A DNA stretch of 16,352 nucleotides from positions 1 to 16,352 of the IMG/VR virus record IMGVR_UViG_2703718777_000029, one strand, 5' to 3'. Within the stretch, counting starts at the first letter, position 1. Every line of letters begins with the position of its first letter. Shown one piece after another: positions 1 through 14,957 of this stretch. Source of the DNA: a virus. Taxonomy: Duplodnaviria > Heunggongvirae > Uroviricota > Caudoviricetes. The translations under genes were made by a program, and so were the position numbers. The notes beneath the pieces are model-generated. The model saw nothing but the letters and a program-made list of their open reading frames with translations, was not told the DNA's origin and searched no databases.

Positions 1-426
1 TTAAAACTCTGCTTTCATTTTATCCGGGAATTTTTTATTTGCAGCATAATAACTACCAAGTATATAAGCGTTCATTTGCTGCTCTACATCAACCCGACAT
101 GCAGCACTAGAACAAGCACCACTGATAAGCCCAAAAGAACTCCCTTTAGCAGAGAGATCAGCTTTAATTTCCTCTACAGTGTTTTTCCCCATAGCAACTA
201 CACACCCTGTAACAATATATCTAGCCTTCACATCATCCATGCTAAGGATAGTGGTTTTCGCAATTTTGCTGTATCCATCATTTTTATAAACATCCATGGC
301 AAACGCACGGCAATCTGTATAATACGGACTTGCTTTAACTTGCGAATACTCAGGTAATTTCATACCTGCACAACCAACTAAACAAAAACCTATCGCTGCT
401 ATTAATACCTTTTTCATTACACTCAT
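1..426 (-). CDS. Putative lipoprotein (late-region moron), 141 aa; start may be the second ATG at 417
   Basis: N-terminus MSVMKKVLIAAIGFCLVGCAG has a basic n-region, hydrophobic core and an LVGC lipobox. The gene is visibly AT-rich compared with flanking phage genes and sits just downstream of the Q-associated terminator. Stop TAA at 1-3. No family recognised. Confidence 0.6.
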   Translation of the reverse strand: MSVMKKVLIAAIGFCLVGCAGMKLPEYSQVKASPYYTDCRAFAMDVYKNDGYSKIAKTTILSMDDVKARYIVTGCVVAMGKNTVEEIKADLSAKGSSFGLISGACSSAACRVDVEQQMNAYILGSYYAANKKFPDKMKAEF

Positions 427-573
427 AACCTAGAAGCATCATTGAAACTAATTTATTAAATATTCATCGAGTTTCTGGAATACAGACGTTACCCATCTCT
501 CCAAAATCTAAAAGATAATAAGAAAAAATGTTTAACGTACCAATCCATTTCATAGTTTCATGAGACATCAGGC

Positions 574-600
574 ACAAAAAAACCCGCTCAGCGGCGGGTT
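574..600 (-). terminator. Intrinsic terminator downstream of Q (tR'-like)
   Basis: On the minus strand: stem CCCGC (plus 594-598 / 583-587) with a 6-nt loop, extended by A-T pairs, followed by a run of 7 U (plus A-run 576-582). Lies about 105 nt downstream of the Q stop. Confidence 0.75.
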
Positions 601-646
601 CTTAAATCTTATCAACGGTAGACATACAAAGCCCATCGTTGGGAAA

Positions 647-675
647 ATCTTATCCATATTTTTTGAAAAATGCAA
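647..675 (-). promoter_or_regulatory. Candidate late promoter (PR'-like) between Q and the terminator
   Basis: Minus strand TTGCAT (675..670), 17-nt spacer, TAAGAT (652..647). Both hexamers are weak matches and the position is inferred by analogy to lambda PR'/qut. Confidence 0.25.
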
Positions 676-706
676 GCATCATGTCGCCATCTTCGGCGAA
701 AATCAT

Positions 707-1459
707 TTATCTTGTCACTTTTCTCAATTGTGTCTCTGCATATGCTTCTTCCTGCCAGCACTTTGTAACCAGTTTATCAATGATATCTGCATATCCTTTG
801 TACCACTGATAATCCGTCAGGGCAGGTACCAGCTTCTGGACATGATGCCGCGCCAGTGTGGTTGGTAAACGGCTAAACCGGTTACCATTGCAACGCCCAC
901 AAATCTTATAAACAGGCGTACCATGAAGCCGGGTTCTTTTTTCATCCAGGACAATACCTTTACCCTTACACCCTCTGCACGCTGTGCTGACTTCTCCCTT
1001 ACCATGACAATGCTGACATAGTTCCTTCACCCACTCTTCCTTGATAACAGATTCCCCGCTTCTGGAGTGTTTCACCACCTCGCGCAATACATTATGAAAT
1101 CCAGTACCAGCACAATGCTCACAGCGAGCCTTACTTGCCGCAGACCTGGAATAATCAGCAAAGGCAAAATTCACAAGGTAAGGGATGATCTGTAACCGGG
1201 TTTCTTCACTCAATTTATTCAATGTCGGGTTATCCAGTGCCATCGCGTAATTGAGCAGACCTTCAATCGCAAACTGAGGATCCTGAACACCAACTTTTGC
1301 CAGGAATAAGGCAAAACCCAGTGGTGCTTTCGACTGCACCATCCCCTGCGCAGCAATTACATCCGTAATTGTTAAACCACCAGAGCCTGTCGCCGGTGCG
1401 TCATCACTCAGTTTTGGAGATTTTGGGGAGTAATATTTTGGTAAGGCTTCAAGGTTCAT
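707..1459 (-). CDS. Late-gene antitermination protein Q-like (QuuQ-like), 250 aa
   Basis: ATG at 1459 preceded by GGAGAA at 7-nt spacing. Cys-rich central region with four CxxCxGxG-type motifs (CEHCAGTG, CQHCHGKG, CRGCKGKG, CGRCNGNR). Position immediately upstream of a strong intrinsic terminator and downstream of a DUF968 gene matches the Qin prophage ydfU-quuQ arrangement as remembered. Confidence 0.65.
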   Translation of the reverse strand: MNLEALPKYYSPKSPKLSDDAPATGSGGLTITDVIAAQGMVQSKAPLGFALFLAKVGVQDPQFAIEGLLNYAMALDNPTLNKLSEETRLQIIPYLVNFAFADYSRSAASKARCEHCAGTGFHNVLREVVKHSRSGESVIKEEWVKELCQHCHGKGEVSTACRGCKGKGIVLDEKRTRLHGTPVYKICGRCNGNRFSRLPTTLARHHVQKLVPALTDYQWYKGYADIIDKLVTKCWQEEAYAETQLRKVTR

Positions 1460-3436: not shown

Positions 3437-3832
3437 TTACCGAGTTGCTAATTTGCAACTCGCTTTTTCGTACTTACTGATAGTGATCTCGACCTTCCCT
3501 TCCGGGATAACCGGTCCCCACTCCACCAGCATTCTTTTCACCTGACTGTCGTCTTCCCACACACCCGCGTGGGTCAGGGCGTCAAACAGCGCCTTGTTAT
3601 AGTTGTCCAGATCGCGGATCCGGTTATCCGGAGGAAACAACACGATCTCCACTGATGCAGGTGCCGACGTTGGTTTTGGCAGACGACGTAACTGCTCAAC
3701 TATTGCTGCACACGCCGCGCTCTGAAATTTTCGCCCCGCCTCGCTTATCAGGCTCTTACCAGCAAATGCCACTTTGTTGGGGTGTCGCCAGTACATGTTC
3801 ACGCTGGGCGGAAAAGGCAGTATTAGCTTCAT
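3437..3832 (-). CDS. rusA: Holliday junction resolvase RusA, 131 aa
   Basis: MKLILPFPPSVNMYWRH... and RDLDNYNKALFDALTHAGVWEDDSQV match the RusA signature (compare E. coli RusA LPWPPSNNRYYRH / [26 protein letters not shown]). Start ATG overlaps the Dam stop (ATGA at 3829-3832). Confidence 0.9.
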   Translation of the reverse strand: MKLILPFPPSVNMYWRHPNKVAFAGKSLISEAGRKFQSAACAAIVEQLRRLPKPTSAPASVEIVLFPPDNRIRDLDNYNKALFDALTHAGVWEDDSQVKRMLVEWGPVIPEGKVEITISKYEKASCKLATR

Positions 3833-4482
3833 GCCACCATCTCCCTGACCAGTTTTTCCGCCTGCTGGCGAACCTGCGCCAGAAATGCCTCACCACATGC
3901 CTCAAGTTCATCGCGCCCGATGTAGCTGATTGCCGGTCCCTTCCAGGTCTTGTCGAAAACAGCAATAGCACCAGCGAAGAAAGCACCTGTTGGCACCTGC
4001 TTTTCGTCTTTCGGGATAAACCAGGCAGGCAGTTCAAAACCAATACGCCCGCGAATAAAAGCAATATGATCTGCATCTTCCGGCCACCACACTTCGCTGG
4101 TGGCAGCTTTGATCAGGAAAACATAGCGCCCGCCTTTATCACGCATGGCACTGGCATGCTTCATGATGTAACGCATGCCGGTGATGTATTGCCCCTCATG
4201 CTGACTGGCGCGGCTGTACGGGGGATTGCCAAAGGCAGCACCTTTAAGCTCCGCAAGACGTTCTGACCAGTCATGCGCCAGCGCGTTGTCTTCCGCCGTG
4301 TAATACGCGGCACATTTGGCGTTATCACCGTCAGTGAACAGATCCAGAACAAACGGACCAAACAAGGTGTTAATTCCCCAGAAAATGTTGTCCGGCGTGC
4401 GCCACTGATCGCCCACTTCCTTCAGTTCATGGGCTGGTTTGTTCCGCAGTTCTACCAGCGCCTGGCAATATTTATTACTCAT
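3829..4482 (-). CDS. Phage DNA N6-adenine methyltransferase (Dam family), 217 aa
   Basis: NPPY catalytic motif (FGNPPYS) typical of N6-adenine methyltransferases; overall resemblance to phage orphan Dam methylases. Start ATG overlaps the stop of the upstream small ORF. Confidence 0.8.
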   Translation of the reverse strand: MSNKYCQALVELRNKPAHELKEVGDQWRTPDNIFWGINTLFGPFVLDLFTDGDNAKCAAYYTAEDNALAHDWSERLAELKGAAFGNPPYSRASQHEGQYITGMRYIMKHASAMRDKGGRYVFLIKAATSEVWWPEDADHIAFIRGRIGFELPAWFIPKDEKQVPTGAFFAGAIAVFDKTWKGPAISYIGRDELEACGEAFLAQVRQQAEKLVREMVA

Positions 4483-7610: not shown

Positions 7611-7676
7611 AATGTAGGATATCCAACATACCAATGTCAAGAATCCTACATAGTCATGTGGTAGGATTGCCTACAT
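7611..7676. promoter_or_regulatory. Right operator/promoter region: three operator sites and a PR-like promoter
   Basis: Site 1 ATGTAGGATATCCAACAT (7612-7629) is a near-palindrome. Site 2 (7634-7651) and site 3 (7659-7676) share the half-site ATCC(T/A)ACAT. On the minus strand, TTGACA (7640..7635), 18-nt spacer, TACATT (7616..7611) overlaps site 1 and would drive cro. Confidence 0.6.
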
Positions 7677-8328
7677 GATGAACATGAGTGATCGTATTCG
7701 CCAAAGGCGAAAAGAACTGAACCTGACACAACAAGCACTGGCTGATTTGACTGGTGTGAACCGTGTCACGGTTACTGGATGGGAAAAGGACGACTACCAA
7801 CCAAATGGAGCCAACCTTCAAGCCCTAGCCAACGCACTTAAATGCGATCCTCTGTGGCTTGTTAGCGGAAAAGGCTCGCCTGAACCAAAGATAAATCTAA
7901 AACCTGAAATATTCGCAGTTAAAAAAGTCCCCCTCATCTCGTGGGTTCAGGCGGGTTCATGGACAATGACGGAGCCTGGTGTCAGGAAAGAAGATGCTGA
8001 AGAGTGGGTTTATACTACCGCCCTTGTATCAGAAATGGCATTTGCACTACGGGTCCGTGGTGATTCAATGACCAATCCCCTCGGCTCACCATCGATACCA
8101 GAAGGTTCTATCGTTATCGTAGAGCCAGATATTATTGATACAGAGTGTATTAACGGAAAAATCGTTGTTGCCCATATCAATGGTGGGCAAGAAGCGACAC
8201 TCAAAAAATTTGTTGAGGACTGGCCGAACAGGTATCTCGTCCCACTAAATCCTAACTATAAAACTATTGAATGCGGTGAGAACTGCAGAATAGTTGGTCT
8301 TGTCAAACAAGTAATAATGGATTTTTGA
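7675..8328 (+). CDS. CI-like prophage repressor (XRE-family HTH plus S24 LexA-like autopeptidase domain), 217 aa
   Basis: N-terminal HTH (LNLTQQALADLTGVNRVTVTGWE); C-terminal S24 peptidase signature with GDSM serine (RVRGDSMTNP) and a downstream lysine (EATLKKF). No SD before the ATG cluster at 7675/7678/7684, so the mRNA may be leaderless as for lambda cI. Confidence 0.85.
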   Translation: MMNMSDRIRQRRKELNLTQQALADLTGVNRVTVTGWEKDDYQPNGANLQALANALKCDPLWLVSGKGSPEPKINLKPEIFAVKKVPLISWVQAGSWTMTEPGVRKEDAEEWVYTTALVSEMAFALRVRGDSMTNPLGSPSIPEGSIVIVEPDIIDTECINGKIVVAHINGGQEATLKKFVEDWPNRYLVPLNPNYKTIECGENCRIVGLVKQVIMDF

Positions 8329-8444: not shown

Positions 8445-8602
8445 TGTTTTTAGAGTTGTGGTGAATGCGCAGGCTGATGCGCGAAAGACATTGCAGCTAT
8501 TACGGAAAAGAGCTGTTCGGCGGGGCAATTAAATGCCCGTGAGAGTCTGAAATAACCGCAAGCCGGAGATCAGCACCGATCACCACAACAGCCACTGCTT
8601 TG

Positions 8603-8650
8603 GCGGTACCAGTTTGTACACTTGCTTCCGGCTGGTACCGCTCTTTTTAC
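8603..8650 (+). terminator. Terminator-like hairpin in the early-left leader (possible attenuator or end of a short leader RNA)
   Basis: Perfect 10-bp inverted repeat GCGGTACCAG (8603-8612) / CTGGTACCGC (8632-8641) with a 19-nt loop, followed by TCTTTTTAC. The sequence CGCTCTTTTTA spanning the 3' arm resembles a boxA element. Confidence 0.4.
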
Positions 8651-13350: not shown

Positions 13351-13409
13351 AAGTACATAGTATTAAAGTTTTTTATGAATGTCTAAATGTATCTTATTCA
13401 GAGGTGATA

Positions 13410-14957
13410 ATGGGTGCCAATGGTTTACTAGCAGTCTTCGCCATACTTATTGCTTGGTATACTCTCTTAACGGATGAGAGACGTGTTGATTTAAGGTTAC
13501 GCATATCTAAATTTAATTTAGTATTCATTATCTTTTTTATATCAACAATATTAACAGTTATATATTCTAAGGTTTTGCTAAGTGTTTTCCCGATAAAACC
13601 GATCCCTTGGATACTCGGTTTTAACGAAGATACATTGGCTTTTACTTGTCTTTGTATCATAATTATATTTTTTGGAATTAAAGTACAGGGCAAAATACTA
13701 CCAAAATCAAACCTTACCTGTTGGATCAGTGTTTCAGAAACATATCTGCGCGCAAAAAAAATAGAACAACTAGGATATCTTTTTGATAAATATCACGAGC
13801 AGCTATTCAATATAATCAGCAATAAAAAATGGTATGTTCGCGTACATAATTACTTAGCCCCTTCATTATCTCCCATTGAAATGGATGAAGAGAAGGTAAA
13901 AAAATTACGATTCAAAAAAGTCAGGAGATTTCTGTCAAAGTTTTTCCCTTATGAAGACAAAAGACAAAATGATATTCAATTAAATATATCCAATCTTCTG
14001 AAATCAAAGGTTTTTTCACATTATCTAATTGATACTTACCCTCACGTAGCTATGAAGGCCACCTGCTTACAGCTTAGATATAATTGTGAGTATAATACAA
14101 ATTTCTTTACGTATTTAATATCTAACCCAAACAGCATTATGTATAGGGAGTTACGAGACAACCAAAATCGTTCATATACAGGGGAGTATGCACTCGACGA
14201 AAGTAATGCCTTGCTTAATTTTTATTTAAATGATATTCGCATGGCGATAGATTTAGAAATATGGAAACCTGTGGGTAATTATGTCATTAGCTACATAAAA
14301 AAACAAAAAGGGAGTTCTTGCTTTTACAATCATCCAGATAATTACTATTCAAGTAGTGATGAGCGTTGGGAATGCCCACTCTTCGTTGGATTGACGTTTT
14401 TCGATGTTATGGTATCTACAGCAATATTCAAACGCTCAAAAAACAATATGTGGCTCATGTATTATCGTTGTTTCCTAAAGGAAATACTTGAGAGCTATGA
14501 AAAATCTAGCAGCATAGATGTAAATAGAGAGTTCCCCATGCGATTTGATTATTTAATATATGAGCTAATCAGCCGTTGTAATATATGGGCAGGAGCAACA
14601 GAACACCTCAATTATGATAACTGGACAACAGAAGATAAAGAGCAATCTCCAGAGTTCTTTGCCTCTAAAACCTTGGGGGAAATGATGTATCTGATTATTA
14701 CTTCAGAAAAAATGCATAACAATCAAAAGACATATCTTTTAGAAATCATTATTAAAAGAATGGACTCTCTTGATAAAAAGAAGAAATCTGCTTACTCCAA
14801 GGAAATCTTCAACAATCTTATCCGAGCATTCTCCCCTGCTTCCATTGATATAAATGCAGTAAATAAATTACGGCAACTTTATACAGGTGTTGATCATGTT
14901 CTAAAAAACAAAAATTCAACTTTTGAAGTTGAACTATCAAAATATCCTGACCAATAA
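13410..14957 (+). CDS. Hypothetical membrane-anchored protein, 515 aa (three N-terminal TM helices plus ~420-aa soluble domain); candidate defence or superinfection-exclusion moron
   Basis: ATG at 13410 preceded by GAGGTG; the track start at 13404 is a GTG. Hydrophobic segments LLAVFAILIAWYTLL, LVFIIFFISTILTVIYSKVLLSVF and LAFTCLCIIIIFFGI. The gene and its flanks are much more AT-rich than the rest of the window. No known domain recognised. Confidence 0.7.
   Translation: MGANGLLAVFAILIAWYTLLTDERRVDLRLRISKFNLVFIIFFISTILTVIYSKVLLSVFPIKPIPWILGFNEDTLAFTCLCIIIIFFGIKVQGKILPKSNLTCWISVSETYLRAKKIEQLGYLFDKYHEQLFNIISNKKWYVRVHNYLAPSLSPIEMDEEKVKKLRFKKVRRFLSKFFPYEDKRQNDIQLNISNLLKSKVFSHYLIDTYPHVAMKATCLQLRYNCEYNTNFFTYLISNPNSIMYRELRDNQNRSYTGEYALDESNALLNFYLNDIRMAIDLEIWKPVGNYVISYIKKQKGSSCFYNHPDNYYSSSDERWECPLFVGLTFFDVMVSTAIFKRSKNNMWLMYYRCFLKEILESYEKSSSIDVNREFPMRFDYLIYELISRCNIWAGATEHLNYDNWTTEDKEQSPEFFASKTLGEMMYLIITSEKMHNNQKTYLLEIIIKRMDSLDKKKKSAYSKEIFNNLIRAFSPASIDINAVNKLRQLYTGVDHVLKNKNSTFEVELSKYPDQ

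What the first reader, a model, noticed from the sequence alone, without database searches (positions are those of the whole stretch)
1..706. Low-GC lipoprotein gene at the Stx-equivalent position just behind the Q-dependent terminator
The region after Q has a textbook intrinsic terminator (574-600) and is followed by an AT-rich gene for a 141-aa lipoprotein (LVGC lipobox), not by lysis genes. In lambdoid phages this slot holds Q-antiterminated cargo such as stx or other morons. The lipoprotein could be a lysogenic-conversion or exclusion factor, comparable in role to Bor or Cor though not recognisably homologous.
Basis: partly seen in the sequence, partly recalled or inferred. Interest (0 to 1): 0.45.

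Follow-up and report, generated by a model that had tools for sequence, protein, structure and literature searches.

The report
Prophage lipoprotein cargo cassette behind Q
This is a real but ordinary kind of prophage "moron": a small AT-rich cassette encoding an uncharacterised outer-membrane lipoprotein, inserted just after the terminator that the phage Q protein overrides, and in some Shiga-toxin phages it lies 2 kb upstream of the toxin genes.

Summary
Window 1-426 (-) encodes a 141-aa protein with a signal peptide and an LVGC lipobox. It lies 281 nt downstream of a lambda-family Q gene (707-1459) and behind an intrinsic terminator (574-600).

New findings:
- **Late promoter.** Between Q and the terminator lies a lambda-PR'-like promoter with the same AACGATGGG element at the same spacing as in lambda.
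- **Cassette.** The gene is part of a 677-bp indel flanked by direct repeats of that terminator. GC is 30-38% inside against 46-56% outside. About 20% of E. coli genomes that carry this Q module have it.
- **Selection.** The gene is under purifying selection (dN/dS about 0.1).
- **Possible own promoter.** A candidate sigma-70 promoter is conserved in a Salmonella variant that sits behind an unrelated Q.
- **Other locations.** Homologues occur in phage early regions, in about 200 SSU5-like phage-plasmids and in Serratia chromosomes. Everywhere the gene is AT-rich relative to its surroundings.
- **Relation to stx.** In Stx2c and Stx2k phages it coexists with stx, about 2 kb upstream. It does not replace stx.

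No sequence, profile or fold match gives a function. Exclusion or another envelope role is inferred, not shown.

Verdict: a textbook moron from an uncharacterised lipoprotein family; modest interest.

The parts
1..426 (-). Lipoprotein gene: 141 aa from the ATG at 426, or 138 aa from the ATG at 417. The mature protein is about 122 aa, predicted all-helical, with four invariant Cys.
   Evidence: ORF. Homologues 55-98% identical, with the lipobox Cys and C39/C75/C105/C110 invariant. dN/dS 0.08-0.2. AF2 model with six helices, pLDDT 71.7, pTM 0.72. Belongs to phrog_4748, function unknown.
370..381 (-). Lipobox codons L16-V17-G18-C19. The +2 residue is Ala, so there is no Asp inner-membrane retention signal.
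   Evidence: Read directly from the sequence. Conserved in all homologues. The outer-membrane sorting rule is established knowledge.
427..573 (-). 5' part of the cassette: 147 nt at about 30-31% GC, present only where the lipoprotein gene is present. It holds the candidate promoter and the 5' UTR.
   Evidence: Homology with cassette-less prophages breaks right after the terminator's T run. GC.
515..543 (-). Candidate sigma-70 promoter of the cassette, TTGGTA-17-TATTAT, ending 88 nt before the ATG.
   Evidence: Promoter scan: (the count is not above chance for the region). An equivalent TTGGTA-18-TATCAT lies at -91 in the 75%-identical Salmonella cassette. Function is inferred, not shown.
574..600 (-). 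Intrinsic terminator, the tR' equivalent. It is also the upstream copy of the direct repeat that bounds the cassette.
   Evidence: Fold. Conservation and loop variation. A second copy lies about 75 nt beyond the window start in identical loci.
632..675 (-). Late promoter of the PR' type: -35 TTGCAT (670-675), 17 nt spacer, -10 TAAGAT (647-652), 6 nt, then AACGATGGG (632-640), identical to the element at the same spacing in lambda PR'.
   Evidence: Lambda sequence read: TTGACT-17-TAAATT-tgactc-AACGATGGG. Near-invariant in all related loci. That AACGAT is the sigma-70-dependent pause element of lambda PR' is established knowledge, cited from memory.
707..1459 (-). Q antiterminator of the lambda Q family (250 aa), with a 48-aa insertion of the DnaJ zinc-finger type.
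   Evidence: PF03589 at E 1.5e-51, plus a sub-threshold DnaJ_CXXCXGXG match. 34% identity to lambda Q.

Best explanation
Window 1-573, together with about 105 nt beyond the window start, is a 677-bp single-gene "moron" cassette. It sits in the leader of a lambdoid late operon, immediately after the Q-controlled terminator tR'.

**Layout.** The order is tR' copy 1, an AT-rich 5' region with a probable sigma-70 promoter, the lipoprotein gene, then tR' copy 2.

**Expression.**
- Inferred: in the lysogen the gene would be read from its own promoter, while PR' transcripts stop at 574-600.
- By analogy with lambda: after induction, Q loads onto RNA polymerase paused at the AACGAT element of PR'. The modified polymerase then reads through both terminators. 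The lipoprotein is therefore co-transcribed with whatever follows, which is stx2 in Stx2c and Stx2k phages, and then the lysis genes.

**Product.**
- Shown: the signal peptide and lipobox features are present in the sequence and conserved in all homologues.
- Inferred: the precursor is exported and lipidated at Cys19. With Ala at +2 it is sorted to the inner leaflet of the outer membrane. The mature protein is a compact helical domain of about 13 kDa, probably held by two disulfides.

**Function.**
- Inferred, about 0.3 on its own: it acts on a conserved envelope component from the periplasmic side. The most likely effect is to block entry of superinfecting phages, or otherwise to protect the lysogen's envelope. 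It is not part of the phage's own lysis or assembly.
For: **Cassette structure**
- Cassette-less prophage L004 aligns to mEp460 in two blocks that overlap by 37 nt, and the overlap is the terminator.
- The second terminator copy is seen in L001, L002, L003 and L069.
- The GC trough coincides with the cassette.
- 214 genomes carry the cassette, against 1080 with this Q/PR'/tR' module.
- The slot after tR' holds unrelated cargo, or nothing, in other prophages.

**Late-control module**
- Q belongs to PF03589.
- The promoter, spacing and AACGATGGG element match lambda.
- The terminator folds as a hairpin with a U run.

**A real, selected gene**
- dN/dS is 0.08-0.2.
- The lipobox and four Cys are invariant.

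**Independence from Q**
- A conserved candidate promoter is present.
- Homologues lie after an unrelated Q family in Salmonella and in an early region next to vapBC.
- They also occur in about 200 phage-plasmids, among replication genes.
- Serratia chromosomes carry copies between efflux and methylase genes.
- In every context the gene is 7-16 GC points below its upstream flank.

**Not a lysis or structural gene**
- Cassette-bearing phages have three different complete lysis modules.
Against: - No expression data exist. The candidate promoter scores 9 of 12, and such matches are not above chance in this AT-rich region (4 found, 3.6 expected).
- The structure model rests on only 8 sequences (pLDDT 71.7).
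- In E. coli and in the 75%-identical Salmonella lineage the gene is always right behind Q. That could mean late, Q-dependent expression is what matters.
- Chromosomal copies in Serratia fit a general envelope role at least as well as phage exclusion.
Confidence: 0.5

Rival explanations
1. It is strictly late, Q-dependent cargo that works during lytic growth. For example, it could mask a receptor on lysing cells and debris so that progeny are not wasted, as T5 Llp does, or it could tune envelope breakdown. It would have no meaningful expression in the lysogen.
For: - In about 45 E. coli-type loci the gene is always 283-284 nt behind Q.
- In all Salmonella 75%-type loci it is 222 nt behind an unrelated Q and directly before the holins.
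- It lies inside the PR'-to-lysis transcription unit.
Against: - Homologues sit in early or replication regions of other phages and phage-plasmids, and in Serratia chromosomes without any Q.
- The cassette has a downstream terminator and a conserved promoter-like site.
- It is absent from about 80% of E. coli genomes with the same Q module.
Confidence: 0.2
2. It is a host-fitness or virulence lipoprotein of the Bor/Iss type, giving for example serum resistance, adhesion or stress tolerance, with no role in phage-phage conflict.
For: - It is a prophage-borne outer-membrane lipoprotein with foreign base composition.
- It is common in pathogenic E. coli (O157:H7, O111:H8, Stx2c phages) and in Klebsiella and Cronobacter phage-plasmids.
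- Chromosomal copies are retained at a syntenic site in two Serratia species.
Against: - No similarity to Bor/Iss or any characterised family.
- The cassette also occurs in non-pathogenic and environmental isolates.
- No phenotype data are available.
Confidence: 0.2
3. It is a periplasmic immunity or inhibitor protein against an envelope-targeting enzyme, such as a type VI amidase or lipase effector, a lysozyme or a bacteriocin, carried as an orphan immunity gene.
For: - It is a small, disulfide-containing, helical protein facing the periplasm.
- It occurs as a stand-alone gene moving between unrelated mobile elements and chromosomes.
- Some known immunity proteins are small helical periplasmic proteins (from memory, not tested).
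Against: - No effector gene is adjacent in any context examined.
Confidence: 0.08
4. It is a chance ORF or a decaying remnant without function.
For: It is AT-rich, annotated only as hypothetical, and no family is known.
Against: - dN/dS is 0.08-0.2 with synonymous sites near saturation.
- The lipobox and four Cys are invariant down to 34% identity.
- It is found on well over 1000 contigs.
Confidence: 0.02

Closest known systems
Morons of lambdoid phages (Hendrix/Juhala concept: promoter, gene and terminator inserted between phage genes)
   Same: - A presence/absence indel between otherwise collinear phages.
- Deviant base composition.
- A downstream intrinsic terminator and a candidate upstream promoter.
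- Dispensable for the phage.
   Different: - Here the flanking terminators are near-identical direct repeats of the Q-controlled tR' itself.
- The cassette therefore sits inside the antiterminated leader.
- Promoter activity has not been shown.
stx2AB and other cargo between PR'/tR' and the lysis genes of Stx phages
   Same: Same transcription unit and orientation, downstream of Q, PR' and tR'. It would be co-transcribed on induction.
   Different: - It occupies a separate slot about 2 kb upstream of stx and coexists with it.
- It is also present in stx-negative prophages such as the one in this window.
- It is not a toxin.
Lambda Bor / Iss (prophage outer-membrane lipoprotein, serum resistance)
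   Same: A small prophage-encoded lipoprotein near the late/lysis region.
   Different: - No sequence or HMM similarity.
- Bor lies after Rz on the opposite strand. An iss gene is seen in that position in L007.
- The size differs, and this protein is predicted to be helical.
Cor (phi80/HK022/N15) and T5 Llp (receptor-blocking exclusion lipoproteins)
   Same: Phage-encoded outer-membrane lipoproteins that act from the periplasmic side. This is the functional logic proposed here.
   Different: - No homology was detected.
- Those proteins are about half the size.
- Cor is linked to tail and host-range genes, whereas this gene is linked to Q or to replication genes.
- No exclusion phenotype is known for this protein.
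Lambda Q / PR' / 6S RNA / tR' late control
   Same: - Q of the same family.
- Promoter with the identical AACGATGGG element at the same spacing.
- An intrinsic terminator downstream.
   Different: - The leader is only about 66 nt, against about 194 nt in lambda.
- Q carries a 48-aa zinc-finger insertion.
- The terminator is duplicated around the cargo.

Membership tests
Bacterial lipoprotein (Lgt/LspA/Lnt substrate) | N-terminal signal peptide with a basic n-region and a hydrophobic h-region | tested here: met
   M(SVM)KK-VLIAAIGFCLV, read from the sequence. Conserved in all homologues.
Bacterial lipoprotein (Lgt/LspA/Lnt substrate) | Lipobox [LVI][ASTVI][GAS]C at the end of the signal peptide | tested here: met
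   L-V-G-C at residues 16-19. The Cys is invariant in 8 of 8 aligned homologues and in the distant member P0015 (LSGC).
Bacterial lipoprotein (Lgt/LspA/Lnt substrate) | Actual lipid modification and signal peptidase II cleavage | not testable with these tools
   Needs globomycin or palmitate-labelling experiments.
Moron cassette | Extra DNA present or absent between genes that are adjacent in related phages | tested here: met
   L004 against L002: a 677-bp indel with a 37-nt overlap. 214 of 1080 genomes with the Q module carry it.
Moron cassette | Own promoter upstream | tested here: inconclusive
   TTGGTA-17-TATTAT at 515-543, with an equivalent site in the Salmonella variant. The scan count is not above chance, and there are no expression data.
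Moron cassette | Factor-independent terminator downstream | tested here: met
   AACCCGCCACTGAGCGGGTTTTTT lies about 75 nt after the stop codon in loci identical to the window (L003, L001, L002, L069). It lies just outside the window.
Moron cassette | Base composition unlike the surrounding phage genes | tested here: met
   30-38% GC inside against 46-56% in the flanks. The same contrast is seen in seven other contexts.
Lambda-type Q / PR' / tR' late control | Q protein of the lambda Q family | tested here: met
   PF03589 at E 1.5e-51. 34% identity to lambda Q.
Lambda-type Q / PR' / tR' late control | Promoter followed by a -10-like pause element in the initial transcribed region | tested here: met
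   TAAGAT-6 nt-AACGATGGG in the window against TAAATT-6 nt-AACGATGGG in lambda. Conserved in all loci.
Lambda-type Q / PR' / tR' late control | Intrinsic terminator downstream that Q-modified polymerase overrides | tested here: inconclusive
   The hairpin plus U run is present and conserved. Q-dependent readthrough cannot be tested here.
Bor/Iss lipoproteins | Match to the family profile | tested here: not met
   No Pfam-A family at E up to 0.1, or up to 5 for any of 8 members. No annotated PHROG.
Cor / Llp exclusion lipoproteins | Sequence or profile similarity; linkage to tail or host-range genes (Cor) | tested here: not met
   No Pfam or PHROG match with a named function. The gene is linked to Q or to replication genes, not to tail genes.
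Outer-membrane spanin (Rz1-type) | Small lipoprotein gene embedded in or adjacent to an Rz gene of the lysis cassette | tested here: not met
   The gene is more than 3 kb from the lysis genes. Separate Rz or lysis proteins are present.
Known anti-phage defence systems (PADLOC) | Match to any defence protein profile | tested here: not met
   0 families at E up to 1.

The most novel reading that the evidence does not exclude
The protein may be the first seen member of a new family of outer-membrane lipoproteins carried by temperate phages and phage-plasmids. Such a protein would block a conserved envelope step, giving a new superinfection-exclusion or envelope-immunity mechanism. It is spread across lambdoid prophages, about 200 SSU5-like phage-plasmids and Serratia chromosomes, and it is co-transcribed with Stx2c/Stx2k on induction. 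Separately, the duplicated tR' terminator may serve as a portable recombination site for swapping cargo into the Q-controlled leader.
Probability: 0.2. Interest if true: 0.55.

Novelty: new member of a known kind. Interest (0 to 1): 0.3.

Why it matters
- **Stx phages.** The cassette lies between the Q-controlled promoter and stx2 in Stx2c and Stx2k phages. Its product should therefore be made together with the toxin, and its two terminators lie in the path of toxin transcription. It is also a convenient marker for this class of Q module.
- **A testable family.** The family is widespread in enterobacterial prophages and in Klebsiella phage-plasmids, yet has no known function, fold relative or literature. 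A simple expression and phage-plating screen could assign one.
- **Mosaic evolution.** The clean terminator-flanked indel is a tidy example of how cargo enters the late leader of lambdoid phages.

None of this changes current understanding unless a new envelope mechanism emerges.

Tried and rejected
- **Sequence and profile searches of the protein.** Pfam, NCBIfam, PADLOC, PDB by sequence and by profile, and Pfam on all members gave nothing. PHROGs returned only phrog_4748, of unknown function.
- **Large protein searches.** The 5.8-billion and 1.84-billion protein libraries gave only 9 and 8 clusters, all enterobacterial.
- **Rfam.** Only sub-threshold Trp and Leu leader hits fell on the terminator hairpin, which is generic terminator similarity.
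- **Literature.** No paper mentions the protein accession. The searches on morons and Stx2c phages turned up nothing about this gene.
- **The sRNA-17 lead.**
  - sRNA-17 is an ArcA-regulated sRNA in an mEp460-like prophage, found after \"hypothetical\" genes were stripped from the annotation.
  - I suspected it was really lipoprotein mRNA.
  - Its primers map to window 8454-8647, next to the repressor gene, so it is unrelated.
  - The RS218 genome was not in the collection.
- **Salmonella cassette.** The Salmonella cassette region has no match in the phage collection.
- **A lysis role** was rejected because cassette-bearing phages have three different complete lysis modules and most phages with this Q lack the cassette.

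Full report
**1. The observation**

The window begins with the stop codon of a minus-strand ORF at 1-426. It encodes 141 aa starting MSVMKKVLIAAIGFCLVGCAGMK....
- It has a basic n-region, a hydrophobic core and an L-V-G-C lipobox, with Ala at +2.
- The second ATG, at 417 (MKK...), is the start shared with all homologues and the one annotated in phage mEp460. The real precursor may therefore be 138 aa. The mature protein is the same either way.

Upstream, 707-1459 (-) encodes a 250-aa Q antiterminator. It matches Pfam PF03589 at E 1.5e-51 and is 34% identical to lambda Q, with a 48-aa insertion of the DnaJ zinc-finger type.

Between the two genes, 574-600 forms a GC-cored hairpin followed on the minus strand by UUUUUUUGUG.
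- The simple terminator scan missed it because the stem can extend into the U run.
- The fold energy of the isolated segment is not remarkable, with z = -1.27. The case for the terminator rests on comparison, given in section 2.

The rest of the window is a lambdoid prophage running from an integrase to Q. It contains a repressor, CII-like, Rha/Ash, replication, Dam, RusA, KilA-N and DUF968 genes.

**2. The late-control module**

The stretch from the Q stop codon to the end of the terminator's T run is conserved in 1080 of 5426 complete E. coli genomes. In most of them the similarity ends within a few bases of window 571.

Inside that stretch is TTGCAT-17 nt-TAAGAT-6 nt-AACGATGGG, at window 675-632 on the minus strand.
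- Lambda PR', read from the lambda record, is TTGACT-17-TAAATT-6-AACGATGGG.
- In lambda, AACGAT is the -10-like element that causes the sigma-70-dependent pause at which Q engages. This is established knowledge cited from memory.
- The element is nearly invariant in every related locus.

The predicted leader is about 66 nt long.

Across loci the terminator stem is kept while the loop varies: CGCTGA, CACTGA, CCCTGA, CGATGC and TGATGT. One locus (L008) has a different hairpin with a UUCG loop at the same place.

I therefore accept "Q-dependent terminator" as the best reading. It is shown by anatomy and by homology to lambda. It has not been shown functionally.

**3. The lipoprotein gene is a discrete cassette**

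- Only 215 genomes carry the gene, all at 97% identity or more. 214 of them carry it joined to this Q end.
- A prophage without it (L004) aligns to mEp460 (L002) in two blocks that overlap by 37 nt, and the overlap is the terminator.
- In loci identical to the window, a second copy of the terminator (AACCCGCCACTGAGCGGGTTTTTT) lies about 75 nt beyond the stop codon, just outside the window.
- The unit is therefore 677 bp: the 5' region, the gene, a short 3' flank and a terminator. It is bounded by direct repeats of tR'.
- The GC trough matches the unit:

| Segment | GC |
|---|---|
| Q | 46.5% |
| Cassette 5' region | 30% |
| Lipoprotein gene | 37.8% (GC3 27.5%) |
| Cassette 3' flank | 37% |
| Downstream DNA | 49-56% |

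- In other prophages with the same Q module the slot is empty, or holds tRNAs or unrelated genes of unknown function (phrog_8867, phrog_11949, phrog_3501).

**4. It is a real gene**

Against homologues from Salmonella and elsewhere, dN/dS is 0.08-0.2 with synonymous sites near saturation. The lipobox Cys and four further Cys (C39, C75, C105, C110) are invariant, even in the most distant member found.

**5. Position relative to stx**

In the phage collection, 16 of the 20 records that hold the whole region are Stx2c or Stx2k phages.

In phiSTEC1575-Stx2k and in an Stx2c phage the order is Q, tR', lipoprotein, second terminator, tRNAs, stx2A and stx2B. The cassette lies about 2 kb upstream of stx.

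The prophage of this window has the same backbone without stx. The gene is therefore in the Q-controlled interval, but in its own slot. It is not a substitute for stx.

**6. Is it only Q-dependent?**

Probably not.
- A sigma-70-like site, TTGGTA-17-TATTAT at 543-515, lies 28 nt after the terminator.
- The 75%-identical Salmonella cassette sits 222 nt behind a Q of an unrelated family (PF06530/DUF1133) and directly before the holins. It has TTGGTA-18-TATCAT at the same distance from the start codon, and the same terminator sequence upstream.
- The scan count is not above chance in this AT-rich DNA, so promoter activity remains a hypothesis.
- Other homologues are not behind any Q:

| Context | Identity |
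|---|---|
| Salmonella prophage early region, next to vapBC | about 65% |
| About 200 non-mobilisable plasmids of 100-120 kb in Klebsiella, Cronobacter, Citrobacter and Buttiauxella. These are SSU5-like phage-plasmids, and there the gene lies among replication genes, followed by a second 99-aa lipoprotein | 55-64% |
| Serratia chromosomes, including a syntenic site between an EmrAB-like pump and a SpoU methylase in two species | 56-62% |

- In every context the gene is 7-16 GC points below its upstream flank.

This is the behaviour of a self-sufficient accessory gene.

**7. What the protein is**

Homology gives no answer.
- No Pfam, NCBIfam, PADLOC or PDB sequence or profile hit.
- PHROG 4748 has no known function.
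- Searches of 5.8 and 1.84 billion proteins return only a handful of enterobacterial clusters.
- All source names are "hypothetical protein" or an automatic "Lipoprotein".
- The AlphaFold model is a six-helix domain starting about 8 residues after the lipidated Cys. It has pLDDT 71.7 and pTM 0.72, from only 8 sequences.
- The mature protein is about 13.4 kDa with pI 8.6.

**8. Mechanism**

*Shown*
- The cassette anatomy.
- The lambda-like late module.
- The lipoprotein signal.
- Purifying selection.
- Portability between contexts.

*Inferred*
- Lipidation at Cys19 and sorting to the outer membrane, because there is no Asp at +2.
- Two disulfides.
- Expression from its own promoter in lysogens, plus Q-driven readthrough after induction.

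*Speculative*
- The role itself. I favour an envelope-level protective function of the exclusion type, at about 0.3 on its own. The reasons are that the protein is a phage-borne and phage-plasmid-borne lipoprotein facing the periplasm, it is dispensable, and it is unlinked to lysis or virion modules.
- Rivals are a strictly late function, a Bor/Iss-like fitness role, and an immunity or inhibitor role.
- A non-functional ORF is excluded by the substitution pattern.

**9. Novelty and interest**

The architecture is that of a textbook moron, and the locus is already annotated in hundreds of genomes as a hypothetical protein. The new points are modest:
- the exact terminator-flanked indel;
- the lambda-identical pause element;
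- the coexistence with stx2c and stx2k;
- the unexpectedly wide spread of the family, including Klebsiella phage-plasmids and Serratia chromosomes.

I rate it a new member of a known kind, with interest 0.3. It would rise to about 0.55 if the protein proved to define a new exclusion or envelope-immunity mechanism.

Noticed in passing
window 8454-8647: The region just beyond the cI-like repressor gene (7675-8328) matches the full-length primers of "sRNA-17". That is a 193-nt ArcA-regulated small RNA reported in an mEp460-like prophage of E. coli K1 RS218 (PMC7719688). The match is exact for one primer and has 1 mismatch for the other. The region contains the near-palindrome GGTACCAGCCGGAAGCAAGTGTACAAACTGGTACC (8605-8639).
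   Followed up: partly
window 13404-14957 (+): A 517-aa ORF with a hydrophobic N-terminus lies in the lowest-GC stretch of the window (30-34%), between the early-left genes and the integrase. It has no Pfam or PADLOC hit, only phrog_13820 of unknown function. It is a second candidate cargo or defence gene at the prophage end.
   Followed up: partly
window 707-1459 (-): Relative to lambda Q, this Q protein carries a 48-aa insertion with extra CxxC motifs, which gives a sub-threshold match to the DnaJ central zinc-finger domain.
   Followed up: no
L010 6446-6745; L065 4437-4736; L070 4431-4730: In SSU5-like phage-plasmids (Buttiauxella, Klebsiella and an IMG/VR contig) the homologue is followed about 10 nt later by a second Cys-containing lipoprotein of 99 aa (phrog_7666). 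[quoted passage not shown]
   Followed up: partly
L017 and L018 4004-4440; L016 about 4001-4417: Serratia chromosomes carry 56-62% identical copies in non-phage contexts. Two species have the gene at a syntenic site between an EmrAB-like efflux pair and a SpoU methyltransferase. These copies are still about 13 GC points below their flanks.
   Followed up: partly
L006 about 3620-3660 (E. coli EC28): In this variant of the Q module the terminator stem is followed by AAATTATTTTTT rather than an uninterrupted T run. tR' may therefore be weakened where a 176-aa gene (phrog_8867) occupies the slot.
   Followed up: no
L003 8866-8936 and 9032-9175: In the locus identical to the window, a 71-nt tRNA-Met and a pseudogene fragment follow the cassette at the point where Stx phages carry tRNAs and stx. 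This suggests an Stx-phage backbone that lacks or has lost stx.
   Followed up: no
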